This document shows, one piece after another, positions 19,621 through 42,478 of a DNA stretch of 64,000 nt. The position numbers were made by a program, and so were the translations under genes. This DNA is from a phage. Numbering within the stretch: the stretch's first letter is position 1; the number at the start of each line of letters is the position of its first letter. The DNA is taken from sequence record PZ445442.1; one strand, given 5' to 3'. The notes under the pieces were generated by a model. It was given only the letters and a program-made list of their open reading frames with translations. It had not been told where the DNA came from and did no database searches.

Positions 19621-20019
19621 ATGAAAACCACTACCTTTAATTTTGATAATGCAGACTTTTCTTTTTCTGATGTCAAGAACTGCCGCCGTGATCGTGGATT
19701 TTACAAGGCTTATAATCTGGTGGGCCTGGACGATGACAATAATTTGCACGAAGTAGCTGAGATCCGGTATTATGCCGCCGCCAGCGGGAACACTCACTAC
19801 TGCGTGTTTTGGATTCACGACAACAAGAACAATAAGTACGGTTATACTGGCGGCAAGGCGAGCGGTCACGGTTACGATAAAGCTAACGCAGCACTTGAGA
19901 GCGCATTAAATGCTATGGGGATCACTGCCGACGGCTGGATCTACGAAGAAGAGTTTTTGTCGGCACTTGCTGACCACCTGGGCTATAAAAAACACATTGT
20001 AACATGCGCCCACGAATAA
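19621..20019 (+). CDS. hypothetical protein
   Basis: Track ORF; AAGAGGATAA SD; upstream TTGACA-N17-TACACT promoter-like element. Confidence 0.55.
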   Translation: MKTTTFNFDNADFSFSDVKNCRRDRGFYKAYNLVGLDDDNNLHEVAEIRYYAAASGNTHYCVFWIHDNKNNKYGYTGGKASGHGYDKANAALESALNAMGITADGWIYEEEFLSALADHLGYKKHIVTCAHE

Positions 20020-20101
20020 AAATCATTGACACGCTGCAAAATTTAAGTAAACTAGACACAAAAGGCGGGAATGTTTCCCGCCAGCACAAAGGAAAAAGAT
20101 C

Positions 20102-20497
20102 ATGAATAAGAACGTACGCCGCATCATGAACGAACTGGCAAACGATGAAAAAATTATTGATATGCATTTGGTCAACATTTGCCGCCGTTGTGTAACATAT
20201 AACAACCGCGCCGCAAAAGCGCGTGAGATGAACGCAAAAGGCACCTTAAAGCCCTTTCAGGTGGTTGTAAAATCTATAACTAGCGCAGCAGGCCAGGCGC
20301 AGGACCACAACAACGAGAGCGCTAATATTGATCCGTCTTACGTAATGAAACGGATCCGGACTTGCAAGAATAAAGAGCAGGTATATAACGTCATAGATTG
20401 GCTGGACTCCCTGGGCGATGTGGTTTACAATAGGTTTTCTGCAGCTATCGAGATCCAGCTTGACAGATTGGACGGGAAAGTACTAAAAACTTATTGA
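20102..20497 (+). CDS. hypothetical protein
   Basis: Track ORF; upstream TTGACA..TAAACT promoter-like element and GGCGGGAATGTTTCCCGCC leader hairpin. Confidence 0.55.
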   Translation: MNKNVRRIMNELANDEKIIDMHLVNICRRCVTYNNRAAKAREMNAKGTLKPFQVVVKSITSAAGQAQDHNNESANIDPSYVMKRIRTCKNKEQVYNVIDWLDSLGDVVYNRFSAAIEIQLDRLDGKVLKTY

Positions 20498-20498
20498 G

Positions 20499-20545
20499 TT
20501 TATTTTTAGATGGCCTTGACACCAGGGCCATCAATAAAGTAAACT
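20499..20545 (+). promoter_or_regulatory. repeated 47-bp promoter cassette with palindrome over the -35 (copy 1)
   Basis: TTTATTTTTAGATGGCCTTGACACCAGGGCCATCAATAAAGTAAACT; GATGGCC/GGCCATC inverted repeat flanks TTGACA; TAAACT 18 nt downstream. Confidence 0.5.
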
Positions 20546-20576
20546 AACCACAGTTGAGCGGAAAGGGGGCTTAAAG

Positions 20577-20696
20577 ATGAGCACTACACGCCAGCACACA
20601 AAGGTAACCATCATCGTTTGCATCATTGGGTACATCCTGGCGCAAATGTTGATGGGTAGCGCCAACGGTGTCGCAAAATTTTTCTTAAACTTTTAA
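20577..20696 (+). CDS. small hydrophobic peptide (39 aa)
   Basis: ATG after AAAGGGGG SD; MSTTRQHTKVTIIVCIIGYILAQMLMGSANGVAKFFLNF; below track size cutoff. Confidence 0.35.
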   Translation: MSTTRQHTKVTIIVCIIGYILAQMLMGSANGVAKFFLNF

Positions 20697-20724
20697 TTGA
20701 CAAGCTAACTTAAATCGATATAAT
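20697..20724 (+). promoter_or_regulatory. sigma70-type promoter (TTGACA-N16-TATAAT)
   Basis: Perfect consensus hexamers; followed by leader hairpin and AAGGAG SD before gene 20776. Confidence 0.6.
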
Positions 20725-20775
20725 AAGCACATAAACGGGAAAACTTCCCAGAACACACAAAAGGAGAAAAACACC

Positions 20776-21117
20776 ATGACTACTATGACCGCCTCAGAAA
20801 AAGCTATGCAGATCGCTGAACTGAAAAAACAGATCGCAGACCTTGAGAATAAGATCGATAACTTTGAAATCGACGAGGACAAGTACGACGAAAACTATGA
20901 TGAATGGTTAGACGAGATCTACGGCGAAATTATGATCGGAAACATTTCTTTTCTTCCGTCGCGTATCCTCAAGGAGCTAGATCCTATCGCTTACCGCTGC
21001 GGATTTAGCGACTACATCGACAGCCTGGATATTGAGGACGATGAAGAATACCAGGAATTACAGACAGAGTTAGAAGAAGCAAAAGAAGAGCTTGCGGAGC
21101 TGGAAGAAAACGAGTAA
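20776..21117 (+). CDS. hypothetical highly acidic coiled-coil protein
   Basis: Track ORF; Asp/Glu-rich throughout (EDKYDENYDEWLDEIYGEI...DIEDDEEYQELQTELEEAKEELAELEENE). Confidence 0.55.
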   Translation: MTTMTASEKAMQIAELKKQIADLENKIDNFEIDEDKYDENYDEWLDEIYGEIMIGNISFLPSRILKELDPIAYRCGFSDYIDSLDIEDDEEYQELQTELEEAKEELAELEENE

Positions 21118-21118
21118 G

Positions 21119-21165
21119 CTTATTTTTAGATGGCCTTGACACCAGGGCCATCAATAAAGTAAACT
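21119..21165 (+). promoter_or_regulatory. repeated 47-bp promoter cassette (copy 2)
   Basis: Identical to the 20499 copy by eye; degenerate relative at about 21455-21502. Confidence 0.5.
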
Positions 21166-21206
21166 TTATACTGTTAACACTGAACTAATGCATAGGAGTT
21201 AAAACC

Positions 21207-21452
21207 ATGGCAGCACTAATCACCAAATATTATGCCCCTACCAACACCAAAAGCGCCCGTATCATGGTAAAAGGCTTCGGACGTAAAAAGGTGTACACCT
21301 GGGATTATGCCTTAGACACGGAAGACAACTACACCAACGCAATGACCGATTTTATTAATGAACTAAATAAGCAGATCTTGACAAGTTATAAAGTGACCGA
21401 TATTGCTTATATAGGTGAAGGCGGGATCTGTTTTGTAGGCATTGTGAAATAG
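21207..21452 (+). CDS. hypothetical protein
   Basis: Track ORF; ATAGGAGTT SD. Confidence 0.55.
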   Translation: MAALITKYYAPTNTKSARIMVKGFGRKKVYTWDYALDTEDNYTNAMTDFINELNKQILTSYKVTDIAYIGEGGICFVGIVK

Positions 21453-21526
21453 TTATTTTTTCGGTGGTCCTGGTTGCAGGGCCATCTATAAAGATAATTT
21501 ATTAACACCATGAAAGGAGAAAGTAC

Positions 21527-22066
21527 ATGATCAGCGGGGCAAGTTTTATTATTGGCGCTATTGCTACGGCTTTAATTGTAAATAAGATCCAGGATAAAAA
21601 GGAAAGAGGAAGTACCGCCCTTGCAGAATATCCATTTTGGGCATTCAACGATAACGAAGATTATATTATAAAGTATAAAAATAAAGAAGGTGACCAAGTA
21701 ACACCGCGACCGATCCCGGCTTACAAAATGCAGGAAACACTATACCGCCTGGAGGCGGGAGGCGCAAAAATTGTAGACTTTTGGGGATACGACCACACAG
21801 ATCAGGAAGTTATAAAGCGCCGTATCCGGGCTATTCAGGCCAATATTGAAGTTAGCAAGGGGGAATATATGAAAATTAATTTCGAGAAAATTGTAAAGCG
21901 CCCTCATGATTCCGAAGAGCTGCCAGAACGCCGCCAGCGTAACAATAAACTGAATAAGCCAAAAAGGTTTGGGAAGATCTGGCGTAATCATTATGATCGT
22001 AAATTGCCCGGCCTACTTTTGGAACGTGAACGACAGGCAGAACGATACCGCCATAAAGACAAATAA
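21527..22066 (+). CDS. hypothetical membrane-anchored protein
   Basis: Track ORF; N-terminal hydrophobic helix, basic C-terminus; GAAAGGAGAAAG SD. Confidence 0.55.
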   Translation: MISGASFIIGAIATALIVNKIQDKKERGSTALAEYPFWAFNDNEDYIIKYKNKEGDQVTPRPIPAYKMQETLYRLEAGGAKIVDFWGYDHTDQEVIKRRIRAIQANIEVSKGEYMKINFEKIVKRPHDSEELPERRQRNNKLNKPKRFGKIWRNHYDRKLPGLLLERERQAERYRHKDK

Positions 22067-22074
22067 CAACCAAC

Positions 22075-22103
22075 GCCCCGCCATTGTGCGGGGCTTTTTA
22101 TTT
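22075..22103 (+). terminator. rho-independent terminator
   Basis: GCCCCGC-CATTGT-GCGGGGC stem followed by TTTTTATTT. Confidence 0.6.
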
Positions 22104-22307
22104 CTATCCTACGAATAGCGCCCCTGGTTGGCCCCACAAACGCCACAAAAGCCCCTACCTATGCAATCCCCTTTCTTGACCTGAAAACAACGTCTAGGGC
22201 CGTTTTATGGCGTTAAAAATATTATTGACAGTGATTTTATTCAAAGCTTGACACCTTGGAATAGTCCGGATATACTAACCACATCAAAGCAAGAAGGAGT
22301 AAACGCC

Positions 22308-22568
22308 ATGCGTAAATTAAAAAATTTTGATAAAGTAGATGTTGTCCTGAATAATTTTTACTACTGCAATAATAAAGCCGTTTGGTGGCGTGATAGCTCC
22401 ACCGATAAAGTTAAAGCGCGCTTTCTCCAGGGGCACTGGCAAGGCCGCCCAGTGATTAAAATCTTAGGGCAATTGGTAGCGTTTAAAAATTGCCACCGTG
22501 TTGACGACGTTGAAGATATTTTGAACATTTTACGCCACAATAATTTAAAAAATAGTGTTGACAAGTAA
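22308..22568 (+). CDS. hypothetical protein
   Basis: Track ORF 22248..22568 trimmed to ATG 22308 after AAGGAGT SD; TTGACA-N17-TATACT promoter-like element upstream (about 22248-22276). Confidence 0.5.
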   Translation: MRKLKNFDKVDVVLNNFYYCNNKAVWWRDSSTDKVKARFLQGHWQGRPVIKILGQLVAFKNCHRVDDVEDILNILRHNNLKNSVDK

Positions 22569-22585
22569 GCCTCAATAAGTATACT
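22558..22585 (+). promoter_or_regulatory. sigma70-type promoter (TTGACA-N16-TATACT) with GC leader hairpin
   Basis: Hexamers read from sequence; followed by GGCGGG-AAAACTT-CCCGCC hairpin and AGGAG SD before ATG 22643. Confidence 0.55.
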
Positions 22586-22642
22586 TAAACACACAGGCGG
22601 GAAAACTTCCCGCCACTAACAAAGAAAATAGGAGAAAATATC

Positions 22643-23266
22643 ATGACCACCGTTAACATTACTACAGGTTACAATTTATCTTTCGACGTGCTGACCGACG
22701 AACAAAAAGAAAAAGCCGTTGAAATGGTCCGCGAAAGAGAAGAACACAGCGGGGATAATTTTTTTGCAGAAAGTGTAATTGAATACTATAAAGAATATGT
22801 TTTTCCAGAGTATGGCCTTGAAGATACCGAAGTACATTGGTCAGGCTTTTGGTGCCAGGGTGACGGCGCGTCAATCAGTGCGGAAAACGTGGATTTAGAA
22901 AAATTCTTGCGTAAAGTAAAGGCCCTGACCAAGTTCCGATCAATTCGTCACTTGTTCGGCACAATGCACGATGGCGAGCTATCCGCAAGTGTTGAGCGTG
23001 ATCCATATAGCCGCTATAGTCACGAAAACACTGTAAGCGGGTACATCGATACTACATGGCTAGACCTGACCGCCAAACAAGAAAATAAAGTGGAAGATCT
23101 GGAAGAGCTGATCACCGAGACGGTACGGGAGCTATCCCGCAAGGTTTACGTAGACCTGGAGGAGGCCTATCTTGAGCAATTTACCGCCGAAAACTTGATC
23201 GGCCTTATCGAGGCAAATGATTGGCGGTTTGATGTGGATGAGCATGGCGAGATGAGTTTTTCATAA
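22643..23266 (+). CDS. hypothetical protein
   Basis: Track ORF with promoter, leader hairpin and SD upstream. Confidence 0.55.
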   Translation: MTTVNITTGYNLSFDVLTDEQKEKAVEMVREREEHSGDNFFAESVIEYYKEYVFPEYGLEDTEVHWSGFWCQGDGASISAENVDLEKFLRKVKALTKFRSIRHLFGTMHDGELSASVERDPYSRYSHENTVSGYIDTTWLDLTAKQENKVEDLEELITETVRELSRKVYVDLEEAYLEQFTAENLIGLIEANDWRFDVDEHGEMSFS

Positions 23267-23355
23267 ATAAAGTGTTGCAATAATCTAAAAACCTGCTATA
23301 TTAAAACTCAAGGGGCAAGACGTTTGCCCCCACACAAAACAAAGAGGAAAACATC

Positions 23356-23736
23356 ATGAAAAACACTACTAAAGCTATTGACACCGTCATGTTTAACCTG
23401 GTTACATTCCGTGAAGATATGAAAGATCTTCCTCGTGAAACAGTGTGCGACCATATCGAAAACTATCGCAAACTAATCAAAGAGTTGCCTTTAAAACGTG
23501 ATCAATATGCGGCTAACGCCATGCTTAATGCCATGATCAAAAAGATGATCCAGTGTGATTTAACCCTGGCCTATGATTATGCAGGCGGTCGTTTTGCAGT
23601 ATACAATCAGCCCGTGCCCGGTATGAGCACCACCGAAGAATTGCACGCGCTCAATCTAAAACAAGACGTGTGGGATAGTATGCCTCGCGTGGTGGTATGG
23701 GTAGAAAGCGGAAAGATTTACGGCGATAATTTTTAA
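23356..23736 (+). CDS. hypothetical protein
   Basis: Track ORF; AAAGAGGAAAA SD; GGGGCAAGACGTTTGCCCC leader hairpin. Confidence 0.55.
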   Translation: MKNTTKAIDTVMFNLVTFREDMKDLPRETVCDHIENYRKLIKELPLKRDQYAANAMLNAMIKKMIQCDLTLAYDYAGGRFAVYNQPVPGMSTTEELHALNLKQDVWDSMPRVVVWVESGKIYGDNF

Positions 23737-23800
23737 TCAGGTAGCAGGCGGCATATTTGCCGCCTTATTGTTAATCAGAACTGTAAAAGAGGTACATAGA

Positions 23801-24172
23801 ATGGAATTTATTATTTTGGCTGTATTTGTTGCCTTGTTCAACGCCTGGATCGCTGGCAAGATGGGTAGATCCGCCTTTTTATGGTTTATTATATCTATTT
23901 TCCTGGGGGTGGTTGCAACTATTGTACTTGTTATCCTTGCAATTGTTGACAAGGGGAATAATAGAAAGGGTAAAGTATTTTCAGACCTGTACGACGCTCA
24001 AACGTTTGTCAACGCCTATTATAGTGATCTTCCAGTCTCCCTACGCTGCAGCCTGGCACAACAAGTTTTCGATGAGGCTAAAACCAGAGATCAAGCCCAT
24101 GAGATATGTTTAACTGAGGCGGATCGCCTATTTGAGAGGAATAGAAAATATGTGGGCCAACCGTTTAAATAA
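23801..24172 (+). CDS. hypothetical membrane protein
   Basis: Track ORF 23768..24172 trimmed to ATG 23801; two predicted TM helices in first 55 aa. Confidence 0.5.
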   Translation: MEFIILAVFVALFNAWIAGKMGRSAFLWFIISIFLGVVATIVLVILAIVDKGNNRKGKVFSDLYDAQTFVNAYYSDLPVSLRCSLAQQVFDEAKTRDQAHEICLTEADRLFERNRKYVGQPFK

Positions 24173-24371
24173 TGCCACATTAATTAATCCCTTTAGTGAA
24201 GATTTGAAGCCAGCCGCCTGGCGTGATGGATTCAATAACGAACGCTTTATTTTCAAGCCTGATCTTGAGGAATTTTATAACAATGGATCGAACAACGACA
24301 GAGATAATTTTTCTTGTGGTGTGCGTAGTGATGGTACTCCTGGGGGCCATTGTAAACCACGTCACTACTAA
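24150..24371 (+). CDS. hypothetical protein
   Basis: Track ORF 24132..24371 trimmed to ATG after GAGAGG SD; an alternative overlapping small TM ORF (in track ORF 24223..24408) cannot be excluded. Confidence 0.4.
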   Translation: MWANRLNNATLINPFSEDLKPAAWRDGFNNERFIFKPDLEEFYNNGSNNDRDNFSCGVRSDGTPGGHCKPRHY

Positions 24372-24391
24372 CAGGGGGAAAGGGGGAGACG

Positions 24392-24511
24392 ATGACACCC
24401 AAGGATAAGCCCCGCACCGATAAGGCGCGCCGTGTTATGGTATGGCTTGAGATCATCGCCCTTGAAATATTGTTAGGGGTAGGGATGTACTTTATCGCTG
24501 TAAGTAACTAA
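24392..24511 (+). CDS. small hydrophobic peptide (39 aa)
   Basis: ATG after GGGGGAGACG SD; MTPKDKPRTDKARRVMVWLEIIALEILLGVGMYFIAVSN; below track cutoff. Confidence 0.35.
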   Translation: MTPKDKPRTDKARRVMVWLEIIALEILLGVGMYFIAVSN

Positions 24512-24515
24512 GAAC

Positions 24516-24544
24516 GGCCCCCCGATCATGGGGGCCTATCTTTT
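24516..24544 (+). terminator. rho-independent terminator
   Basis: GGCCCCCC-GATCAT-GGGGGCC stem followed by TATCTTTT. Confidence 0.5.
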
Positions 24545-24648
24545 AAAAAAATTCTTCCGGGGTGTTGCAATCCGGTCCGGAATGTGGATAATAACAATCA
24601 ACGGGGAGCTAATCCCCACCACCACAAAAACCAGAAAGGAGAAACAAA

Positions 24649-24849
24649 ATGAGCAACAATATCCGCGTTATTAACTTCAAAAAAGAAGAAAAAATTGCCG
24701 TGCTGATTGACGGTCAAGAAATCTTCAAGGGCGACTATGAAGATCATCAAACGGCGATTAGTATCACTCGCGTGATTGGTTACCATAATTTTTACCCCCA
24801 AGGCGCTGAGGCAGCGGTTAAACGAATCAAAGAGATTGTAGGCCTGTAA
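24649..24849 (+). CDS. hypothetical protein
   Basis: Track ORF; AAAGGAGAAAC SD. Confidence 0.55.
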   Translation: MSNNIRVINFKKEEKIAVLIDGQEIFKGDYEDHQTAISITRVIGYHNFYPQGAEAAVKRIKEIVGL

Positions 24850-24851
24850 AA

Positions 24852-24898
24852 TTTATTTTTAGATGGCCTTGACTCCAGGGCCATCAATAAAGTAAATT
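24852..24898 (+). promoter_or_regulatory. repeated 47-bp promoter cassette (copy 3, TTGACT variant)
   Basis: ATTTATTTTTAGATGGCCTTGACTCCAGGGCCATCAATAAAGTAAATT. Confidence 0.5.
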
Positions 24899-24943
24899 TA
24901 AACCCTGTTAAAAATACCACGCAGTTAACAAGGAGTGATAGAC

Positions 24944-25243
24944 ATGTTTATCCAGGCTAATAATCTTTATTTCTTTGATGGTCAGATCGTAGACGGCGTG
25001 GAGGTGGAAATCACCGGGTGCCCTAGCGGTCAGGTTATGACTTTTCGGAATAATGCCTTTGATGATTCTCATATCGTTATGAGAATGGAAGTTAGTAAGC
25101 TGGATGACAAGAAAACACTTATCGACTATTCCGTCAAAGATCATCCAGACTACCACATGATCTATGGTGATTTGTGCATTGTTGACCGTGACAAGGTTGG
25201 CGGCATTGTGATCGCTATTGTGAACGATGTTTTCTCAAACTAA
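24944..25243 (+). CDS. hypothetical protein
   Basis: Track ORF 24935..25243 trimmed to ATG 24944 after AAGGAGTG SD. Confidence 0.5.
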   Translation: MFIQANNLYFFDGQIVDGVEVEITGCPSGQVMTFRNNAFDDSHIVMRMEVSKLDDKKTLIDYSVKDHPDYHMIYGDLCIVDRDKVGGIVIAIVNDVFSN

Positions 25244-25260
25244 TTTCAGCAGGTAATTTT

Positions 25261-25611
25261 ATGAAAGTAAAACTATATTACCTTAATGAGCTTAACCCCC
25301 TTGCCCAGGTCCGCGCCCTGGCTAATACCTTGATTTGTGAGAAATCTGTATATTGTGTTGAGCTTAACGCCATGCGTGAACGTCTCAAAGGTGGTTACTT
25401 TGACATCCATGCTGCAATCAACGGCCTGAATATAGAATTTATCCGCTTACGTAACAGCCGCCAGAATCTGGCAAGAATGGAACAAGATCCGGCCCACCTT
25501 CGTAAGCTGGTTATTGAAAATCATCTGATGTTTAATGCCGATGGTGATTATTACCATTTTCACCGTAAACGCTGGTACCGTAGCGGCAATATAGGAAAGA
25601 ATGCAAAATAA
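25261..25611 (+). CDS. hypothetical protein
   Basis: Track ORF. Confidence 0.55.
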   Translation: MKVKLYYLNELNPLAQVRALANTLICEKSVYCVELNAMRERLKGGYFDIHAAINGLNIEFIRLRNSRQNLARMEQDPAHLRKLVIENHLMFNADGDYYHFHRKRWYRSGNIGKNAK

Positions 25612-25646
25612 GGCCCCTGGCAGGGCCTGCAGCGATATAATCACAT

Positions 25647-25680
25647 AAAGGCTATGCGGTTGCATAGCCTTTATTATTTT
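25647..25680 (+). terminator. rho-independent terminator
   Basis: AAAGGCTATGC-GGTT-GCATAGCCTTT stem followed by ATTATTTT; a second hairpin GGCCCCTGGCAGGGCC lies just upstream. Confidence 0.55.
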
Positions 25681-25820
25681 GGCGTTACAGCGGCCCCCAA
25701 GGCGCTTAAAAAATTTTTAAAGAAGTACTTGCATCAAGTCCTACAATATGGATAATAAAGGGTGTCGGGGGGGGGCGGTGAGGCCTCCAATCATTAACCG
25801 GATAGATAGGAGTTAAAACC

Positions 25821-26105
25821 ATGGCTATTGTTACCGTTGGCGATGTAGTGGAAATGGAAGCAAAATACTTAAAAGCGGGTATGCATATCCTACGCAACGA
25901 TCTTGAACTAGTCCTGACAATGGTTGACTATAACCCAGGGCAAGATTATCCAAGCATCGACTACTTTTTTGAGTATGTTGATGAAGAGTTGAAAGAGGAT
26001 GAGGCCTATTGCGGTGAGTTCTGCAATTTCTTTTGTCCTGATGAGGTTGTAAAGGTTATCTATCAACCTGGCGTACCTTTCCCGCTGCACGCTATCAATA
26101 AATAA
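25821..26105 (+). CDS. hypothetical protein
   Basis: Track ORF; ATAGGAGTT SD. Confidence 0.55.
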   Translation: MAIVTVGDVVEMEAKYLKAGMHILRNDLELVLTMVDYNPGQDYPSIDYFFEYVDEELKEDEAYCGEFCNFFCPDEVVKVIYQPGVPFPLHAINK

Positions 26106-26168
26106 ACCTGGTGGGGCCGAAAAGGCCCCCTCCTGAAACTATGAAAAAATAAAGAGAGGTAAATCATC

Positions 26169-26402
26169 ATGATGGAACAAATTAAACGCGCTGAGTCTAT
26201 TAATGGCAATGTGATCTATTTTGTCAGCAAAAACGAAAAAGGCGTACCATATGCGGCGGTAATAGTACAACCTGACGGCGATTATTGGTTTACTGTATAC
26301 GGATCTTATTCTTTCGGGCGTCCGGTTCATGATAGAATTTTGAAAGTAGCAAATCCGACCGGGAAAAATATCACAGCAGAAAAATTTTTTGAAAATAGTT
26401 GA
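26169..26402 (+). CDS. hypothetical protein
   Basis: Track ORF; AAGAGAGG SD. Confidence 0.55.
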   Translation: MMEQIKRAESINGNVIYFVSKNEKGVPYAAVIVQPDGDYWFTVYGSYSFGRPVHDRILKVANPTGKNITAEKFFENS

Positions 26403-26478
26403 CATGACCATATAAGACTGTAATATATAAATCAAAGGGGGGCAACAAGCCCCACCAACCACAAAGAGGATAAAAATC

Positions 26479-26658
26479 ATGGCTATTATTGCAAAGACTG
26501 AGATCGTAGGCTTAGATTCTATTCTCCTCGCATATGAGGAAGCTATAGAAATGTATGTGGTTTCCTATGGTGAGTATATTCGTGAATATAAATCTATTGA
26601 TCTGGCTTTTGAATGTTATATTCGCCAGGTAAATAAAGCATATGATGATTATCGTTAA
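26479..26658 (+). CDS. hypothetical small protein (59 aa)
   Basis: ATG after AAGAGGATAA SD, preceded by TTGACA-N16-TAATAT promoter-like element (26399-26426) and GC leader hairpin; just below track cutoff. Confidence 0.45.
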   Translation: MAIIAKTEIVGLDSILLAYEEAIEMYVVSYGEYIREYKSIDLAFECYIRQVNKAYDDYR

Positions 26659-26743
26659 AATAGTTTGACAACAATTACAAATCGGGTAGAATGTATTTCG
26701 TAGGGCGGCAATGATGCCGCTCACAACTAAAAGAGAGATCATC

Positions 26744-26938
26744 ATGGCGCTTAAAAAACTAACAAGCAATACTCGTTGGGATGAAATCGACGGGGAAGTT
26801 TACATTTTTGCCCGTAAACCAGGGGATCAAAAATGGTCAAAGGCTTTTACTTGCCATCCTGCAACAATAGATCTGATAAAAAGTCAAGGACTACGTGAAG
26901 CAGTAGCAAGAAGTTTACTGATCCCTTGTAAAAATTAG
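26744..26938 (+). CDS. hypothetical protein
   Basis: Track ORF 26711..26938 trimmed to ATG 26744; TTGACA-N16-TAGAAT promoter-like element (26665-26692) and GCGGCAATGATGCCGC leader hairpin. Confidence 0.5.
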   Translation: MALKKLTSNTRWDEIDGEVYIFARKPGDQKWSKAFTCHPATIDLIKSQGLREAVARSLLIPCKN

Positions 26939-27015
26939 TTTGACAACAGTCAACAATCTGGTAAAGTGTACTACATAGCGCGGGAATACTTCCCGCCATT
27001 AATGAGGGTAATTTA

Positions 27016-27153
27016 ATGAAAACTTTCAACGCAACAGCCTCGACAATTGGTTATATTATTACAGTACAAGCCGTGGATCTGGTAGCAGCAGCAAACAAGA
27101 TTAAAAAGATGATTCCGCCAGGTAGTGAATTTTCCGTTTGGGAAGTAAAATAA
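27016..27153 (+). CDS. hypothetical small protein (45 aa)
   Basis: ATG after GAGGG SD; TTGACA-N16-TAAAGT promoter-like element (26940-26967) and GCGGG-AATACTT-CCCGC leader hairpin. Confidence 0.4.
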   Translation: MKTFNATASTIGYIITVQAVDLVAAANKIKKMIPPGSEFSVWEVK

Positions 27154-27236
27154 ATCTTGACAATAGTTTATTACTTGATAGACTGTATTTCGTAGGGCGG
27201 GGCAATAAGGCAACGCCCATTAATGAGGGTAGAATC

Positions 27237-27341
27237 ATGTTAGAGAAAATTTTCACGGTTGTAGTAGTTGGCCTGGCATTATCGGTTGGAGTGGTTGCAA
27301 CTATGGCTAACATGATCCTATCTTCCCACGGTATCGGTTAA
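27237..27341 (+). CDS. small hydrophobic peptide (34 aa)
   Basis: ATG after GAGGGTAG SD; TTGACA-N16-TAGACT promoter-like element (27157-27184); MLEKIFTVVVVGLALSVGVVATMANMILSSHGIG. Confidence 0.4.
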   Translation: MLEKIFTVVVVGLALSVGVVATMANMILSSHGIG

Positions 27342-27351
27342 GGTGAATCAA

Positions 27352-27567
27352 ATGATCACGAATAAGACAGGTAAAACAGAATTTTTACGCGGCTTGCAAA
27401 TAGGTAAGCCTGAGATCTGGCATTGCACTAAAACACCACGTGACGAAATGAAAGACTTCACCGCCACGCTGCAACGGGTAAAGATATCCATCACGCAGAA
27501 AAAGGCCTTGATAGTGGTGGAAGGTGAGATCCCTCAAACCGTTGTTATAGTTGAGCGTACAGCATAG
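27352..27567 (+). CDS. hypothetical protein
   Basis: Track ORF 27343..27567; ATG 27352 preferred (AAGGTG SD), GTG 27343 possible. Confidence 0.45.
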   Translation: MITNKTGKTEFLRGLQIGKPEIWHCTKTPRDEMKDFTATLQRVKISITQKKALIVVEGEIPQTVVIVERTA

Positions 27568-27658
27568 TTTAATTTATAGCGATACCTGAAAATTAACCAA
27601 TAAATCATAAACAGGCGGTTACCGCCGCCTTAAACGTAGCAGAAAGAGGCTAGACACA

Positions 27659-27943
27659 ATGAAAAAGATGATCGCAGTAGTTGCCCTGGTTGTTGGACTT
27701 AATGCGCCTGTAATGGCTAAAGAGCTGGCAAAAGAGGTTAATCTAACGGATATCCATGCCGTCAATCAAATCGGGGTTACTTATCGCTTATGCCTTGCCG
27801 CTAAAACTTTTAATGACGGCACAACAGAGTACTACGGATTCGAGGGTATCCGGTGCGGTAAGCTTGCTCGCGACCTTAAGGAAGATCCAGACCTGGAAGA
27901 TCTGCCCATCACCGTAAACGGTAAAGCTTACGTAAACCGTTAA
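27659..27943 (+). CDS. hypothetical secreted/periplasmic protein
   Basis: Track ORF; N-terminal signal-peptide-like segment MKKMIAVVALVVGLNAPVMA|KE. Confidence 0.5.
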   Translation: MKKMIAVVALVVGLNAPVMAKELAKEVNLTDIHAVNQIGVTYRLCLAAKTFNDGTTEYYGFEGIRCGKLARDLKEDPDLEDLPITVNGKAYVNR

Positions 27944-27945
27944 CC

Positions 27946-28080
27946 ATGAGAAAGATAATCATCACCTTGGGGATTGTGGCTGGATCGCTGGCGCTCTTTC
28001 CCCTTATGGTTAGGTATGTGCTGATCAGTATTGTCCTGGTAGTCAGTGATCTATTGGGAACGGTTGGCACCTTGTTTTAA
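27946..28080 (+). CDS. small hydrophobic peptide (44 aa)
   Basis: ATG immediately after upstream stop; MRKIIITLGIVAGSLALFPLMVRYVLISIVLVVSDLLGTVGTLF; weak SD. Confidence 0.3.
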   Translation: MRKIIITLGIVAGSLALFPLMVRYVLISIVLVVSDLLGTVGTLF

Positions 28081-28092
28081 AGAGCGATAAAA

Positions 28093-28284
28093 ATGAATAT
28101 CGAACAAGTTAGAAAGGTATTGGCGGTACTGCGTTATCATAATCATAGAAAGGTTATAGACGATCCTGATTATGTTGATTCAAGTCTGGAAGGGGATACA
28201 CTGCAAGCCATAAGCAACATGCAAGAATTGCTCAAGCGCATGACAGAGAAAAACCGACCGGACTACATAGGCGAAAAAATATAA
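28093..28284 (+). CDS. hypothetical protein
   Basis: Track ORF. Confidence 0.5.
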   Translation: MNIEQVRKVLAVLRYHNHRKVIDDPDYVDSSLEGDTLQAISNMQELLKRMTEKNRPDYIGEKI

Positions 28285-28300
28285 TCCTTATAAACTACAA

Positions 28301-28329
28301 AACAGGGCTTGCAATGGTCCTGTTTTTTG
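28301..28329 (+). terminator. rho-independent terminator
   Basis: AACAGG-GCTTGCAATGGT-CCTGTT stem followed by TTTTG. Confidence 0.5.
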
Positions 28330-28495
28330 TTATACTTGTTTCACGGCAGGCACCTGGCGACGGGTGGAGACAATCACCGGGCCTGCCTGTCATATAAGAA
28401 CTATAAAAACCGTTGACATCTGCCAGGTGGTGGGGTAACATTTATCTTGAAGGGGCAAAAGTGCCCACACAACAACCAGAAGAGAGGAAAACATT

Positions 28496-28768
28496 ATGTC
28501 AAGCTGGATTAATCAAGAAGTCGAATCACGTTTTAATGCTATTTGGGATCTCATCGAAAAAGAGGACGGAACATCAAGCCCTTATCTCAATAATCTTGAA
28601 TTCCATTTCGTGGAAGCGATGAACGCAGAACATGATCACGAAGGTGGTGCGGATGAGTTCGCTAAAGGGTATGGCTTCAACAATGCCAACGAAATGATCG
28701 AGGCGGTTGTACTCCAGGCTGAGGAAGATTATCAATTAAAAACGCTTGAATTCTGCCGCCGTAAGTAA
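28496..28768 (+). CDS. hypothetical protein
   Basis: Track ORF; TTGACA..TAACAT promoter-like element, GGGGCAAAAGTGCCC leader hairpin, AGAGAGGAAAA SD. Confidence 0.55.
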   Translation: MSSWINQEVESRFNAIWDLIEKEDGTSSPYLNNLEFHFVEAMNAEHDHEGGADEFAKGYGFNNANEMIEAVVLQAEEDYQLKTLEFCRRK

Positions 28769-28828
28769 TAAGATAATGACACGGGCCAAAAGGCCCACTA
28801 ATCAGAACCACACAAAGAGAGAAAGAAA

Positions 28829-29047
28829 ATGACAACCCGTAAAATTAAAGTTGTTTGCATTGAATCGACTGGGGGCGCTTTTGTAGTTGGTCAGGAATAT
28901 AATGCGGTTTTAATGGGTACGGATTGGAAGGTTAAAGGCCTTAATGGTTACGAGTACGGCACTACTTGCGGCTTGCGTGGTCGAATCGGATACGTGAGTT
29001 TAGACAACAAAGAAAAATTTGTTTTCGACACCGTTGTGAGTAAATAG
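28829..29047 (+). CDS. hypothetical protein
   Basis: Track ORF; GGCCCAAAAGGCCC leader hairpin and AAAGAGAGAAAG SD. Confidence 0.55.
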   Translation: MTTRKIKVVCIESTGGAFVVGQEYNAVLMGTDWKVKGLNGYEYGTTCGLRGRIGYVSLDNKEKFVFDTVVSK

Positions 29048-29533: not shown

Positions 29534-29953
29534 ATGAACATTAAATCTAATAATCCGGCATATAGCTTTGATAACGCTTTTTGTCACGGTCCGGCGGCGA
29601 AAGGATTCGAAATCGATGGTAAACTAATTATTGTCAATGTTGACGGGGAAGAGGTTGCAGTATATCCGGTGGCAGACGTTAAAAGCCGTCTACAATGCCG
29701 CATGGATGTTACCGCCTATCAGCTTGATCCGGTCCGCATAGTTGCCCTGGTCCTGGAAGAAGAAATTAAAGCCATGCACCATAGCAACAGATTTATTGGT
29801 GACGCGCAGGATAATATGAAAGTATGCCGCCATAAAGTTAATGAAGTGCTTAAAGAGTACGGCTATAAAGATCTTATGATCAAACGCGAGGAAAAATTCC
29901 GCTACCGTAACGACCTGGCAAATCGGATTTTTGAAATATACGAATCATTATAA
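29534..29953 (+). CDS. hypothetical protein
   Basis: Track ORF; AAGAGGTAAAAA SD. Confidence 0.55.
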   Translation: MNIKSNNPAYSFDNAFCHGPAAKGFEIDGKLIIVNVDGEEVAVYPVADVKSRLQCRMDVTAYQLDPVRIVALVLEEEIKAMHHSNRFIGDAQDNMKVCRHKVNEVLKEYGYKDLMIKREEKFRYRNDLANRIFEIYESL

Positions 29954-29971
29954 TTTTTTAACTGAATTATC

Positions 29972-29997
29972 AAGGGGCTTAGGCCCCTTTCTTTTTG
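29972..29997 (+). terminator. rho-independent terminator ending the rightward block
   Basis: AAGGGGC-TTAG-GCCCCTT stem followed by TCTTTTTG. Confidence 0.55.
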
Positions 29998-34333: not shown

Positions 34334-34651
34334 TTAACGTTCTACAAAAATACCGTTCAGTTCAATAACCAGGAATTTCTGGTCTTCGCTATCGTCTCGT
34401 GCCAGCACCTCACAGACGTATCGGTCATCCCCATCATCATCGCAGTCAAATACAAGACTGAGGACTTTATCATGATAAACCTTCGCCACTACCGCCTCGT
34501 AAGTATTGCCGATTGTGAATCCAAGATAATCTCCAATGCATTTGACAACAACATGATCGCCAGCATTTAAGTCAATCTTCGTCATTACTGCGCTCCTTGG
34601 GTAATAATACTGTATGTAAAACTTTAACCAGAGATGTGAATAACGCCCCAA
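34334..34651 (-). CDS. hypothetical protein
   Basis: Track ORF. Confidence 0.5.
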   Translation of the reverse strand: MGRYSHLWLKFYIQYYYPRSAVMTKIDLNAGDHVVVKCIGDYLGFTIGNTYEAVVAKVYHDKVLSLVFDCDDDGDDRYVCEVLARDDSEDQKFLVIELNGIFVER

Positions 34652-34740
34652 AACACACCGATAGCGCTAAAACAGACAAGGCCATCATTAAAGCTTCAGT
34701 AAAATCAGTCATTCCTCACCTCTTGTTAGTCACTATACTA

Positions 34741-37780: not shown

Positions 37781-37882
37781 TTAATAGCCGTAACCTAACA
37801 CATTAACTACAACTGCGATTGCAAACATAATTTCAAAGCATGCAATCTCTACATTTGGGACTAATTTCTTAATCACACCCAT
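37781..37882 (-). CDS. small hydrophobic peptide (33 aa)
   Basis: Minus-strand ATG after GAGGTG SD; MGVIKKLVPNVEIACFEIMFAIAVVVNVLGYGY; below track cutoff. Confidence 0.3.
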   Translation of the reverse strand: MGVIKKLVPNVEIACFEIMFAIAVVVNVLGYGY

Positions 37883-40059: not shown

Positions 40060-40063
40060 AATT

Positions 40064-40255
40064 CAGCCTCGCATAGACATAATCACTATAAACAGGCAAA
40101 CAATGAATCCGAATGCCACGCCACCCATAAACGTTAATATTGATGCAATCATAGTCAATCAGCCTCGCATAGACATAATCACTATAAACAGGCAAACAAT
40201 GAATCCGAATGCCACGCCACCCATAAACGTTAATATTGATGCAATCATAGTCAAT
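40064..40255. repeat. perfect tandem direct repeat, 2 x 96 bp (plus 9-bp start of a third unit)
   Basis: Unit CAGCCTCGCATAGACATAATCACTATAAACAGGCAAACAATGAATCCGAATGCCACGCCACCCATAAACGTTAATATTGATGCAATCATAGTCAAT appears twice back-to-back; intergenic on the minus strand. Confidence 0.8.
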
Positions 40256-41810: not shown

Positions 41811-42010
41811 CCCTCATCGCACGTCTGATATAACCACTCTATAAAATCTTGATACCATTCTCCCTCTGAGCGCTCCGTAGGCCAATAATCTTCACCCTCT
41901 CGTGCATTAAAATCTGAGTATTCAACTTTCCACTCCTTTACCAGCTCGTGGAGAAGGTTTTCAGCCTGCTCTAAAGATTTATTTTTTACCATTGCTGTCT
42001 CCTTTTTCAA
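41807..42010 (-). CDS. hypothetical protein
   Basis: Track ORF; start uncertain. Confidence 0.45.
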   Translation of the reverse strand: MKKETAMVKNKSLEQAENLLHELVKEWKVEYSDFNAREGEDYWPTERSEGEWYQDFIEWLYQTCDEG

Positions 42011-42211
42011 GATAGTTATACATCAGAACTGCACCACCTAAGATGGCTACCAGTAACAATACCCCAGATAGCATCTCAATAAACATGGCTTGAAACACTG
42101 GAAGGCCTCCCTAAATTAACGCACCATTTTAAATACATGCTCTTTTCCCATAAAGGTGCCTGGCTAAGATCTGCGTAGAACGCAATCTCTTTAAGAACAG
42201 TATAAACAGTT

Positions 42212-42448: not shown

Positions 42449-42478
42449 TGGTCCTCCCTTTGTAGGTTAAATTGTATA

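What the first reader, a model, noticed from the sequence alone, without database searches (positions are those of the whole stretch)
20577..28080. Recurrent tiny hydrophobic peptides (33-44 aa) scattered among the early genes
Seen in sequence: at least five short ORFs with good SD sequences encode single-helix hydrophobic peptides (20577-20696, 24392-24511, 27237-27341, 27946-28080, and minus strand 37781-37882). Inference: membrane-targeting modulators such as superinfection exclusion, toxin-like inhibitors or transporter blockers.
Basis: inference. Interest (0 to 1): 0.45.

Follow-up and report, generated by a model that had tools for sequence, protein, structure and literature searches.

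The report
Tiny membrane-peptide genes of rV5-like phage
The five tiny hydrophobic ORFs are real, conserved phage genes for 33-44-residue membrane peptides, already listed as "membrane protein, 1 TMD" in the related phage rV5; they are unrelated to one another and nobody knows what they do.

Summary
The window is Escherichia phage EmilHeitz (Bas49, Vequintavirus, rV5-like). It is 100% identical to the GenBank record except for one extra 96-nt tandem duplication.

All five ORFs exist at the stated coordinates and are annotated as hypothetical proteins (bas49_0109, 0118, 0126, 0129, 0154). The 2013 rV5 paper already lists their orthologues as "membrane protein, 1 TMD".

They are genuine genes:
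- Each is kept full-length in 113-164 phage genomes.
- Length is invariant even between alleles only 50-70% identical.
- dN/dS is 0.12-0.49.
- Four have Shine-Dalgarno sites. The fourth ORF has none but starts 2 nt after the upstream stop codon.

The pattern is not chance. Ten of 15 annotated 29-50-aa ORFs carry a TM-like helix, against 4 of 169 unannotated ORFs (p = 3e-10). The window holds nine such families, not five.

They are not paralogues. Each has its own PHROG of unknown function, with no Pfam, NCBIfam or PADLOC match. One new lead is that ORF4 looks distantly related to T4 gp52.1 (DUF7396).

Function is untested. My best guess is that they are early-expressed, single-helix inner-membrane peptides, each binding a different membrane protein. 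The finding is real but ordinary and already catalogued.

The parts
20577..20696 (+). o1 = bas49_0109, a 39-aa peptide. Basic N-terminus (+2), TM helix VTIIVCIIGYILAQMLMGS, 11-residue C-tail. Orthologue of rV5 ORF193 ('membrane protein, 1 TMD'). phrog_16391.
   Evidence: Full-length in 113 Vequintavirus records. dN/dS 0.15.
24392..24511 (+). o2 = bas49_0118, a 39-aa peptide. Strongly basic N-terminus (+6/-2). The TM helix carries two conserved Glu residues (LEIIALEILLGVGMYFIAV). Last gene before a terminator. rV5 ORF181. phrog_13629.
   Evidence: 119 records. dN/dS 0.12. Residues 16-39 are invariant despite 5 codons with synonymous variants.
27237..27341 (+). o3 = bas49_0126, a 34-aa peptide and the first gene after a promoter. 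It has two alleles about 50% identical, of the same length, with the same C-terminal ATMxNMILSSxGIG. rV5 ORF173 (annotated there from a longer start). phrog_14631.
   Evidence: Allele A occurs in 157 records across Vequintavirus, Phapecoctavirus and Justusliebigvirus. dN/dS 0.34.
27946..28080 (+). o4 = bas49_0129, a 44-aa wholly hydrophobic peptide. It has no SD and starts 2 nt after the stop of the signal-peptide protein gene. rV5 ORF170. phrog_16005. Possible distant relative of T4 gp52.1 / Pfam DUF7396.
   Evidence: Matches in 164 records, 122 of them full-length by tblastn. Cleanly absent in Murica, C12 and EI-SP-GF. dN/dS 0.49.
37781..37882 (-). o5 = bas49_0154, a 33-aa peptide. N-terminal KK, TM helix with two Glu residues (VEIACFEIMFAIAVVVNVL). 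It lies 9 nt downstream of the HPF-like 'ribosome hibernation factor' gene, whose stop codon lies inside the o5 SD. rV5 ORF145. phrog_15151.
   Evidence: 118 records, 91-100% aa identity. dN/dS 0.14, based on few changes.
   Evidence: dN/dS 0.13.
34572..34712 (-). o7 = bas49_0144, a 46-aa TM peptide with an acidic N-terminus and a charged C-tail, so probably N-out/C-in. rV5 ORF156 ('membrane protein, 1 TMD'). phrog_16755.
40063..40254 (-). o8 = bas49_0162, a 29-aa TM peptide (MIASILTFMGGVAFGFIVCLFIVIMSMRG). It is present twice because of a perfect 96-nt tandem duplication (copies at 40063-40158 and 40159-40254). The duplication is absent from the GenBank record and from the 30 best-matching of 117 matching phage records.
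   Evidence: A 10-nt direct repeat GCGAGGCTGA flanks the single-copy gene.
41979..42086 (-). o9 = bas49_0169, a 35-aa TM peptide. rV5 ORF131 ('membrane protein, 1 TMD'). phrog_15251. It lies near a 78-aa two-TMD protein (42212-42448, rV5 'putative holin') and a putative glycosidase (42479-43003).
20497..20545 (+). Repeated 49-nt promoter-in-hairpin element directly upstream of o1 (GATGGCC-TTGACACCAG-GGCCATC, then TAAACT). Further copies lie at 21117, 21451 and 24850.
20697..20724 (+). Perfect sigma-70 consensus promoter (TTGACA-16-TATAAT) starting at the first base after the o1 stop codon. Equivalent to promoter P192 in the rV5 annotation.
24516..24536 (+). Strong intrinsic terminator-like hairpin (7 G-C pairs followed by a T-run) 5 nt after the o2 stop.
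27157..27184 (+). Sigma-70-like promoter (TTGACA-16-TAGACT with extended TG). It belongs to a 56-nt repeat family (copies starting at 26657, 26932 and 27149) and appears to drive the o3...o4 operon.
27659..27943 (+). bas49_0128, a 94-aa protein with an N-terminal signal-peptide-like segment (MKKMIAVVALVVGLNAPVMA). It is the upstream gene to which o4 appears translationally coupled. phrog_9845, function unknown.

Best explanation
These are bona fide, separately evolved phage genes for very small (29-46 aa) single-helix inner-membrane proteins. Nine unrelated families lie in the two divergent 'small-gene' arms of the rV5-like genome.

Proposed mechanism:
1. Host sigma-70 RNA polymerase transcribes them early, from the dense array of consensus promoters.
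2. They are translated from their own SD, or by coupling in the case of o4.
3. They insert post-translationally through SRP/YidC/SecYEG, as shown for the 27-aa E. coli protein YohP.
4. Each then packs its helix against the transmembrane helices of a particular larger membrane protein, host or phage, and changes that protein's activity. This is how AcrZ, MgrB, MgtS, T4 Ac or the levivirus protein LysM work.

The likely outcomes are host-envelope takeover functions such as superinfection exclusion, transporter or efflux modulation, or signalling blockade.

Shown here: the genes are real, conserved and under purifying selection; they are TM-like; they sit in a promoter-rich context; and they are unrelated to each other. 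Inferred: early timing, membrane insertion, topology (o1, o2 and o5 N-in; o7 and o9 N-out by the positive-inside rule), and the binding-modulator mode of action. The confidence of 0.45 refers to the mechanism. Confidence that they are real membrane-peptide genes is about 0.9.
For: Identity and annotation.

Conservation: full-length copies in 113, 119, 157, 164 (122 full-length) and 118 phage records.

Coding signature: length is invariant across alleles 50-70% identical, hydrophobicity is preserved, and SD sites are conserved. dN/dS is 0.12-0.49.

Selection on the exact helix sequence: in o2 all amino-acid changes fall in the N-terminal 15 residues, while the helix is invariant despite 5 codons with synonymous variants. 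o3 keeps its C-terminal half invariant across alleles and genera. This points to selection beyond mere hydrophobicity.

Conserved polar or charged residues sit inside the helices: o2 E20/E25, o5 E12/E17, o4 R23/S34/D35.

Enrichment of TM helices among the annotated mini-ORFs: p = 2.8e-10.

All 15 promoter-like sites scoring 10 or more of 12 are on the coding strand, and rV5 has sigma-70 promoters annotated in the equivalent region.

rV5 TMHMM/Phobius prediction: 1 TMD.

Precedents: small membrane-protein regulators (PMC12648545); post-translational SRP insertion of YohP (PMC7549839, abstract); T4 Ac assumed to act on AcrAB-TolC (PMC13250531).
Against: There is no experimental evidence of translation, localisation, partner or phenotype for any of them. 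The rV5 mass spectrometry covered virions only.

There is no homology to any characterised small membrane regulator, and all neighbours are of unknown function.

Conserved polar residues in a helix fit self-oligomerising pores as well as specific binding.

o4 is dispensable in nature, being cleanly deleted in Murica, C12 and EI-SP-GF.

The dN/dS estimates rest on only 4-8 distinct sequences per gene, and o5 and o7 show too few substitutions to be informative.
Confidence: 0.45

Rival explanations
1. They are small subunits or assembly factors of phage-encoded membrane or periplasmic complexes, acting with the larger membrane or secreted proteins encoded beside them rather than on host targets. 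Candidate pairings are o4 with the signal-peptide protein bas49_0128, o2 with the two-TMD protein bas49_0116, and o9 with the two-TMD 'holin-like' protein and the glycosidase.
For: o4 starts 2 nt after the stop of a gene for a protein with a signal-peptide-like N-terminus. o2 is the last gene of a unit that also contains a 123-aa two-TMD protein annotated 'putative holin'. o9 lies two genes downstream of a 78-aa two-TMD protein that itself adjoins a putative glycosidase. Bacterial precedents from my own knowledge are KdpF and CydX.
Against: bas49_0128 is retained in phages that have lost o4 (Murica CDS 18071-18361). o1, o3 and o5 have no membrane-protein neighbour. No interaction was tested.
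Confidence: 0.2
2. They are toxin-like or holin-like peptides that oligomerise in the inner membrane and dissipate the proton-motive force. Comparable examples are type I toxins such as TisB, Hok, Ldr and DinQ, and pinholins. The effect would be to shut off host metabolism or to time lysis.
For: Size, a single TM helix and short tails match the general description of type I toxins (PMC12648545). Acidic or polar residues inside the helices could line a pore. NCBIfam gives a very weak holin_phiLC3 hit for o6 (E = 0.099, 12.9 bits against a cut-off of 39.7).
Against: There are no Pfam or NCBIfam matches to Hok, Ldr, TisB, Ibs, ShoB, DinQ or holin families at threshold. No convincing antisense promoter overlaps any of o1-o4. 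The genes sit behind consensus sigma-70 promoters in the small-gene arms, and none of o1-o5 is next to a lysin. Early depolarisation would deprive a 140-kb lytic phage of energy for replication, although this is inference.
Confidence: 0.12
3. The peptides themselves have no function. The ORFs would be translated leader or spacer ORFs whose translation, not product, matters (coupling, mRNA stability or attenuation of downstream genes). Alternatively they would be young de novo ORFs whose hydrophobicity merely reflects T-rich intergenic DNA.
For: o3 is the first ORF after a promoter and ends 10 nt before the next gene. o4 and o5 are tightly coupled to upstream genes. Intergenic DNA tends to encode hydrophobic peptides (PMC11188072). 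Several genome annotations omit o1 and o4.
Against: dN/dS is 0.12-0.49, with amino-acid-level conservation of particular segments. The two o3 alleles have diverged to 50% identity yet keep the same length, the hydrophobic helix and the C-terminal motif. o3 and o4 are conserved across two phage subfamilies. Unannotated ORFs of the same size in the same DNA are rarely TM-like, 4 of 169.
Confidence: 0.07

Closest known systems
rV5 ORFs 193, 181, 173, 170 and 145 (rv5_gp188, gp176, gp168, gp165 and the 33-aa ORF next to the sigma-54 modulation factor), listed as 'membrane protein, 1 TMD' in Kropinski et al. 2013 (PMC3606486)
   Same: Direct orthologues. They have the same positions, the same lengths (39, 39, 34 (annotated as 46 in rV5), 44 and 33 aa), and 53-100% aa identity (o3 about 53%, o4 about 73%, o1 and o2 about 92%). 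They fall in the same PHROGs.
   Different: EmilHeitz carries the other o3 allele (about 50% identical to rV5's, and shared with Phapecoctavirus) and the other o4 C-terminal tail (GTVGTLF versus LYINSLF). No function is known for either set.
T4 gp52.1 / Pfam DUF7396 (PF24129) / phrog_3595, a 46-aa predicted membrane protein encoded next to ac in a T4 early region
   Same: This applies to o4 only. Shared features: nearly the same length (44 versus 46 aa); an M-x-K-(I/K)-I start; a shared core (V)LI(S/N/Q)(I/V)VL(V/F)(V/I)SD(L/V); and the -SL- near the C-terminus. The match is colinear over the full length: hmmscan E = 0.004-0.1 to DUF7396 and 0.016 to phrog_3595. hhalign score is 24, against 9.9 +/- 2.1 (maximum 18.2) for 300 column shuffles.
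   Different: All scores are below the Pfam gathering threshold (13-18 bits against 27). hhalign probability is only 68% and covers 22 columns. The EmilHeitz allele itself gives no DUF7396 hit. The function of gp52.1 is also unknown.
T4 Ac (51 aa, 'acridine resistance protein, predicted membrane protein')
   Same: A small, early, non-essential phage membrane peptide. It is assumed to act on a host membrane machine, the AcrAB-TolC efflux pump (PMC13250531; T4 annotation). This is the 'transporter blocker' precedent.
   Different: There is no sequence similarity to any of the nine peptides, and it belongs to a different PHROG (2501). Its mechanism is itself only assumed.
E. coli small membrane-protein regulators (AcrZ 49 aa, MgrB 47 aa, MgtS 31 aa, KdpF 29 aa, CydX 37 aa)
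   Same: Size of 50 aa or less, a single TM helix and short tails. They act by binding a larger membrane protein (PMC12648545).
   Different: There is no homology. The phage peptides are phage-encoded and have no known partner.
Type I toxins (TisB, Hok, Ldr, Ibs, ShoB, DinQ)
   Same: Hydrophobic single-helix peptides of under 60 aa (PMC12648545).
   Different: No homology, no antisense RNA or promoter seen, an ordinary SD-led or coupled operon context, and conservation as part of a lytic phage gene set.
Phage superinfection-exclusion membrane proteins (T4 Imm 83 aa and Sp 97 aa) and single-gene lysis peptides (levivirus M LysM, 37 aa, MurJ blocker). Cited from my own knowledge.
   Same: Small phage-encoded membrane proteins that act on the host envelope.
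   Different: No sequence relationship (no Pfam hit). Imm and Sp are two to three times larger. The single-gene lysis peptides belong to ssRNA phages and cause lysis.

Membership tests
PHROGs 16391 / 13629 / 14631 / 16005 / 15151 (rV5-type mini membrane ORFs, function unknown) | Full-length significant match to the family HMM | tested here: met
   E = 1.8e-31, 7.3e-32, 2.1e-22, 1.1e-25 and 3.7e-26. Each covers the whole peptide and the whole profile.
PHROGs 16391 / 13629 / 14631 / 16005 / 15151 (rV5-type mini membrane ORFs, function unknown) | Syntenic orthologue in rV5 predicted to have one TM domain | tested here: met
   rV5 ORFs 193, 181, 173, 170 and 145 are listed as 'membrane protein, 1 TMD'. 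Positions and sequences were matched in locus L015.
Pfam DUF7396 (T4 gp52.1), tested for o4 only | Score at or above the Pfam gathering threshold (27 bits) | tested here: not met
   Allelic variants P0004, P0005 and P0007 score 17.7, 16.1 and 13.1 bits. The EmilHeitz allele gives no hit. T4 gp52.1 itself scores 81 bits.
Pfam DUF7396 (T4 gp52.1), tested for o4 only | Profile-profile similarity beyond compositional bias, with the same length and colinear motifs | tested here: inconclusive
   hhalign probability 68%, score 24.0 over 22 columns. 0 of 300 column-shuffled controls reach it (mean 9.9, sd 2.1, maximum 18.2), and the reversed control scores 10.9. phrog_3595 is the second-best PHROG for one o4 allele (E = 0.016, full length). 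An exhaustive profile search of 1.84 billion representatives did not reach the T4 family.
Type I toxin-antitoxin toxins | Hydrophobic peptide of under 60 aa with one TM helix | tested here: met
   Definition taken from PMC12648545.
Type I toxin-antitoxin toxins | Homology to a known toxin family (Hok, Ldr, TisB, Ibs, ShoB, DinQ, Zor) | tested here: not met
   No Pfam or NCBIfam hits at threshold.
Type I toxin-antitoxin toxins | Overlapping or adjacent antisense RNA antitoxin with its own promoter | tested here: not met
   The consensus promoter scan shows no minus-strand promoter-like site overlapping o1-o4. All sites scoring 10 or more of 12 are on the coding strand. This is a weak test, since no RNA data exist. 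There are no Rfam hits in 18000-43000.
Type I toxin-antitoxin toxins | Toxicity or depolarisation on expression | not testable with these tools
   Needs induced expression with membrane-potential and viability read-outs.
Holins / antiholins | Gene adjacent to an endolysin in a late lysis cassette | tested here: not met
None of o1-o5 is next to a lysin gene. They lie behind sigma-70-type promoters in the small-gene arms. The rV5 lysin is gp89, outside the small-gene arms (rV5 ORFs 124-212) that hold these peptides.
Holins / antiholins | Homology to a holin family | tested here: not met
   The only hit is o6 against TIGR01598 holin_phiLC3, at 12.9 bits against a cut-off of 39.7.
Superinfection-exclusion proteins (T4 Imm/Sp type) | Homology to Imm or Sp families | tested here: not met
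   No Pfam or PHROG match other than each peptide's own unknown-function PHROG.
Superinfection-exclusion proteins (T4 Imm/Sp type) | Blocks DNA entry of a superinfecting phage | not testable with these tools
   Needs plating or efficiency-of-plating assays on cells expressing each peptide.
Small membrane-protein regulators (AcrZ / MgrB / MgtS type; a functional class, not a homology family) | 50 aa or less, a single TM helix and short tails | tested here: met
   The AF2 model of o4 is one continuous helix over residues 2-43, pLDDT 92.7.
Small membrane-protein regulators (AcrZ / MgrB / MgtS type; a functional class, not a homology family) | Direct binding to a larger membrane protein that alters its activity | not testable with these tools
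   Needs pull-down/MS, bacterial two-hybrid or AlphaFold-Multimer screening, none of which is available here.
Anti-phage defence proteins (PADLOC) | Match to a defence-system model | tested here: not met
   0 hits for all nine peptides at E <= 1.

The most novel reading that the evidence does not exclude
The nine unrelated mini-peptides would form a 'membrane takeover kit', in which each helix disables a different host inner-membrane machine early in infection. One would act like T4 Ac on an efflux pump, which would explain why Vequintaviruses (Bas48-59) are unusually sensitive to DNA intercalators (PMC13250531). The perfect 96-nt duplication of the o8 mini-gene in this window, seen in no database genome examined, would then be a recent dosage adaptation of one such effector.
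Probability: 0.1. Interest if true: 0.6.

Novelty: already known. Interest (0 to 1): 0.25.

Why it matters
Small phage membrane peptides are a large, mostly uncharacterised class. Where one has been solved (T4 Ac, Imm/Sp, levivirus LysM), it revealed a specific host membrane target. A set of nine conserved, unrelated peptides in a genetically tractable BASEL phage (Bas49) that grows on E. coli K-12 is a convenient panel for finding new peptide inhibitors of membrane machines.

As a genomic observation, however, it is not new. The genes are annotated, placed in PHROGs, and flagged as 1-TMD membrane proteins in the 2013 rV5 paper. Similar mini membrane ORFs are typical of the early regions of large lytic phages such as T4.

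What this analysis adds:
- Coding and selection evidence for the genes.
- The full count of nine families.
- The demonstration that they are not paralogues.
- A candidate link between o4 and T4 gp52.1 (DUF7396).

Tried and rejected
1. Paralogy among the peptides ('recurrent' as a gene family). All-against-all hhalign gives at most 3.8% probability, and the top pairs are only marginally above column-shuffle controls. blastp agrees. Rejected.

2. Known-family membership. Pfam, NCBIfam and PADLOC gave nothing at threshold. PHROGs gave only each peptide's own unknown-function family.

3. Functional hints from neighbours. Ten flanking genes all fall in unknown-function PHROGs, and none has a Pfam hit at threshold.

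4. Remote relatives of o4. The word-indexed search found 7 clusters, all from rV5-like phages. The exhaustive profile search of 1.84 billion representatives found 3 clusters. No bacterial relatives appeared. A UniRef label 'DUF3096' on one homologue was not reproduced by hmmscan.

6. o4 as a two-helix hairpin. AF2 gives one continuous helix. This is not decisive, because the model was built without a membrane.

7. The junction of the 96-nt duplication was searched in IMG/VR and gave 0 matches. No other source for the variant was found.

8. Literature. No transcriptome, Ribo-seq or functional study of these ORFs in Vequintaviruses turned up. Fremin et al. 2022 is not held in the library.

9. 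tRNA and Rfam scans of the region, including the ORF-free gap of about 2.4 kb, found nothing.

10. My first gene table failed for 43 genes. The cause was that the window carries 96 nt more than the GenBank record, which is how the duplication was discovered.

Full report
**Identity of the window.** Megablast of 20000-29000 gives a 100% match to Escherichia phage EmilHeitz (Bas49, MZ501062.1; Vequintavirus, rV5-like). About 250 related records also match. Window position equals record position minus 64682 up to window 40158. After that the window carries 96 extra bases. The GenBank annotation of the record shows the layout. A plus-strand arm of replication genes is followed by about 65 mostly small genes (window 1-29950). 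An ORF-free gap of about 2.4 kb follows. Then comes a minus-strand arm of small genes followed by nucleotide-metabolism genes. GC skew changes sign at the gap.

**Check of the observation.** All five ORFs are present at the stated coordinates, and each encodes a peptide dominated by one hydrophobic stretch. The best 19-residue Kyte-Doolittle means are 2.08-2.49.
- Four have good Shine-Dalgarno sequences at the right distance.
- The fourth ORF (27946-28080) has none. Its ATG follows the upstream stop by 2 nt (TAA-CC-ATG), and its start codon is GTG in phage naswa.
- All five are already annotated as hypothetical proteins: bas49_0109, 0118, 0126, 0129 and 0154.
- The rV5 genome paper lists the orthologues (ORFs 193, 181, 173, 170, 145) as 'membrane protein, 1 TMD' on the basis of TMHMM and Phobius. 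It also remarks on '88 mainly small ORFs' in this part of the genome (PMC3606486).

**Is it more than chance?** I took every ATG ORF of 29-50 aa in all six frames of the window. Ten of the 15 that coincide with annotated genes have a 19-residue window of 2.0 or more. Only 4 of the 169 others do: 0 of 45 overlapping a gene on the same strand, 3 of 108 antisense, and 1 of 16 intergenic. Fisher p = 2.8e-10. Gene callers do not use hydrophobicity, so this is a real enrichment.

The additional mini TM genes are 32946-33047, 34572-34712, 40063-40152 (with a second copy at 40159-40248) and 41979-42086, all on the minus strand. That makes nine families.

**Are they genes?** tblastn of each peptide against 50,697 phage records gave the following.

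| Peptide | Records | Distribution | aa identity |
|---|---|---|---|
| o1 | 113 | Vequintavirus only, all full-length | 82-100% |
| o2 | 119 | Vequintavirus only, all full-length | 77-100% |
| o3 | 157 | also Phapecoctavirus and Justusliebigvirus | 76-100% |
| o4 | 164 (122 full-length) | also Phapecoctavirus-like phages | 64-100% |
| o5 | 118 | Vequintavirus only | 91-100% |

About 117-119 Vequintavirus genomes are in the collection, so o1, o2 and o5 are nearly universal in the genus.

In loci fetched from 12 related genomes, the ORFs keep exactly the same length, start and SD. Two cases are especially telling:
- o3 exists as two alleles only about 50% identical: MLEKIFTVVVVGLALSVGVVATMANMILSSHGIG and MKQKLIDAVILVIALGIGLIATMSNMILSSNGIG. 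Both have 34 codons, the same hydrophobic profile and the same C-terminal motif.
- o4 exists with two different C-terminal tails, both giving 44 aa.

Nei-Gojobori dN/dS is 0.15 (o1), 0.12 (o2), 0.34 (o3), 0.49 (o4), 0.14 (o5, few changes) and 0.13 (o6).

In o2 all four amino-acid-variable positions lie in the N-terminal 15 residues. Residues 16-39 are invariant despite five codons with synonymous variants. This is selection on the exact helix sequence, not just on hydrophobicity.

o4 is nevertheless dispensable in nature. It is cleanly deleted in Murica, C12 and EI-SP-GF, while its upstream neighbour is retained.

**Are they related to each other or to anything known?**
- Each falls in its own PHROG (16391, 13629, 14631, 16005, 15151), all 'unknown function'.
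- There are no Pfam, NCBIfam or PADLOC hits at threshold.
- All-against-all hhalign of the nine families gives at most 3.8% probability.

'Recurrent' therefore describes a class, not a gene family.

**A possible link for o4.** While comparing with T4 small membrane ORFs, I found that o4 aligns colinearly with T4 gp52.1, a 46-aa predicted membrane protein encoded next to ac. The evidence:
- T4 gp52.1 is the founding member of Pfam DUF7396 (81 bits).
- Allelic variants of o4 hit DUF7396 at E = 0.004-0.1 over the full length, but only at 13-18 bits against a threshold of 27.
- They hit phrog_3595, the gp52.1 family, at E = 0.016.
- Profile-profile comparison of eight o4 sequences with thirteen gp52.1 sequences gives 68% probability and a score of 24.0 over the C-terminal 22 columns.
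- None of 300 column-shuffled controls reaches that score (mean 9.9, sd 2.1, maximum 18.2).

I regard a distant relationship as likely but not established. It brings no function, because gp52.1 is itself uncharacterised.

An exhaustive profile search of 1.84 billion representative proteins found only three clusters, all 44 aa. The o4 family is therefore confined to rV5-like and phAPEC8-like phages.

**Context.** The plus-strand small-gene arm is dense in sigma-70-type promoters. All 15 sites scoring 10 or more of 12 are on the coding strand, nearly all with a perfect TTGACA. rV5 carries annotated sigma-70 promoters at the equivalent places. The position of each ORF is as follows.
- o1 lies between a repeated 49-nt 'promoter-in-a-hairpin' element (20497-20545, four copies in the region) and a perfect consensus promoter starting right after its stop (20697-20724).
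- o2 is the last gene of a unit that also encodes a 123-aa two-TMD protein. A strong terminator follows it (24516-24536).
- o3 is the first gene behind a promoter belonging to a 56-nt repeat family (27149-27204).
- o4 is four genes downstream in the same unit, coupled to a 94-aa protein with a signal-peptide-like N-terminus.
- o5 follows the HPF-like 'ribosome hibernation factor' gene by 9 nt.

All ten neighbouring genes examined are of unknown function. Early expression is therefore inferred from promoter type, not shown.

**Topology (inference from the positive-inside rule).** o1, o2 and o5 have basic N-termini and almost no C-tail, so they are probably N-in/C-out. o7 and o9 have acidic or no N-termini and charged C-tails, so they are probably N-out/C-in. 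AF2 models o4 as one continuous helix over residues 2-43 (pLDDT 92.7). That does not decide between one long, tilted span and a hairpin.

**Mechanism.** I commit to the following at about 45% confidence. The peptides are made early, and they insert post-translationally, as shown for the 27-aa E. coli protein YohP (PMC7549839). Each then binds a particular larger membrane protein through helix-helix packing and alters its activity. Bacterial precedents are MgrB and AcrZ (PMC12648545). A phage precedent is T4 Ac, which is assumed to block AcrAB-TolC (PMC13250531).

Arguments for this reading:
- Selection acts on exact helix sequences.
- Conserved polar or charged residues lie in the helices.
- The families are mutually unrelated, which suggests different targets.
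- An early-made depolarising toxin would be counter-productive for a large lytic phage. This last point is inference.

Rivals:
- Subunits of phage-encoded membrane complexes that act with the neighbouring gene products (about 20%).
- Toxin-like or holin-like pore formers (about 12%).
- Translation-only or functionless ORFs (about 7%). This reading is contradicted by dN/dS and by the o3 allele pair.

Nothing here distinguishes superinfection exclusion from transporter blockade.

**Verdict.** They are, however, already annotated, classified and described as 1-TMD membrane proteins in this phage group. Such mini membrane ORFs are a familiar feature of the early regions of large lytic phages; the T4 stretch examined alone has 52.1, ac, motA.1 and ndd.2. 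Interest is low to moderate. The main value is as a tractable panel for experiments.

Noticed in passing
window 40063-40254 (minus-strand genes): A perfect 96-nt tandem duplication gives two identical copies of the 29-aa TM mini-gene bas49_0162. The GenBank EmilHeitz record and all 30 best-matching Vequintavirus records have a single copy, and the junction is absent from IMG/VR. A 10-nt direct repeat (GCGAGGCTGA), which also carries the SD of the downstream gene, flanks the single-copy gene. This offers a slippage or unequal-recombination route to the duplication.
   Followed up: partly
window 20497-20545, 21117-21165, 21451-21499, 24850-24898: A 49-nt repeat sits immediately after stop codons. 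It is a 7-bp hairpin (GATGGCC...GGCCATC) whose loop holds a TTGACA -35 box, followed by a TAAACT -10-like box. It resembles the promoter-early stem-loops (PeSL) of T4-type phages, which are thought to mediate shuffling of early gene cassettes (from my own knowledge). o1 sits directly behind one copy.
   Followed up: partly
window 26657-26712, 26932-26987, 27149-27204: Three copies (66-100% identity) of a 56-nt promoter module (TTGACA...TAGAAT followed by GTATTTCGTAGGGCGG). The third copy precedes o3.
   Followed up: no
window 18439-18624: Three tandem repeats of about 65-74 nt overlap the annotated 47-aa and 34-aa 'hypothetical proteins' bas49_0102 and 0103 (18435-18578, 18584-18688). Neither is TM-like, and they may be repeat DNA rather than genes.
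   Followed up: no
window 29950-32400: An ORF-free stretch of about 2.4 kb lies where the two transcription arms converge and GC skew changes sign. It is equivalent to the 'non-coding' box of rV5 (104013-106618). No tRNA and no Rfam family were found in it.
   Followed up: partly
window 24392-24511 and 37781-37882: o2 and o5 share an 'E-I-x3-E-I' motif at the cytoplasmic end of the helix (LEIIALEIL and VEIACFEIM), following a basic N-terminus. The profile comparison is only marginal: score 13.2, with 2 of 100 shuffles reaching it.
   Followed up: partly
window 27237-27341; loci L006, L008, L009, L011, L013, L015: o3 is dimorphic. The EmilHeitz allele is 97% identical to that of a Phapecoctavirus-like phage (PsgM04F), but only about 50% identical to the allele in rV5, Murica and others. 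This suggests that the 26.1-28.3 kb module has been exchanged between phage subfamilies.
   Followed up: partly
window 41979-43003 (minus strand): Mini-peptide o9 lies in a cluster with a 50-aa ORF, a 78-aa two-TMD protein (rV5 'putative holin') and a putative glycosidase. This could be a lysis-type or cell-wall module. The BASEL annotation instead gives the label 'putative holin' to a different two-TMD protein, at 23801-24172.
   Followed up: no
window 26711-26938: A 75-aa ORF is annotated in phage naswa (naswa_148) but not in the EmilHeitz record. Conversely, o1 and o4 are annotated in EmilHeitz but not in naswa. Small-gene annotation across this genus is inconsistent.
   Followed up: no
window 20724-20761 and 22586-22623: A repeated 38-nt 5'-leader hairpin (CGGGAAAACTTCCCG core) lies just downstream of two strong promoters.
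   Followed up: no
phage collection records MG0656xx ('Campylobacter phage C12, C5, A112b, A140 ...'): About 20 records labelled as Campylobacter jejuni phages (UNVERIFIED) are 92-96% identical to this E. coli Vequintavirus. They are presumably mislabelled or contaminant sequences.
   Followed up: no
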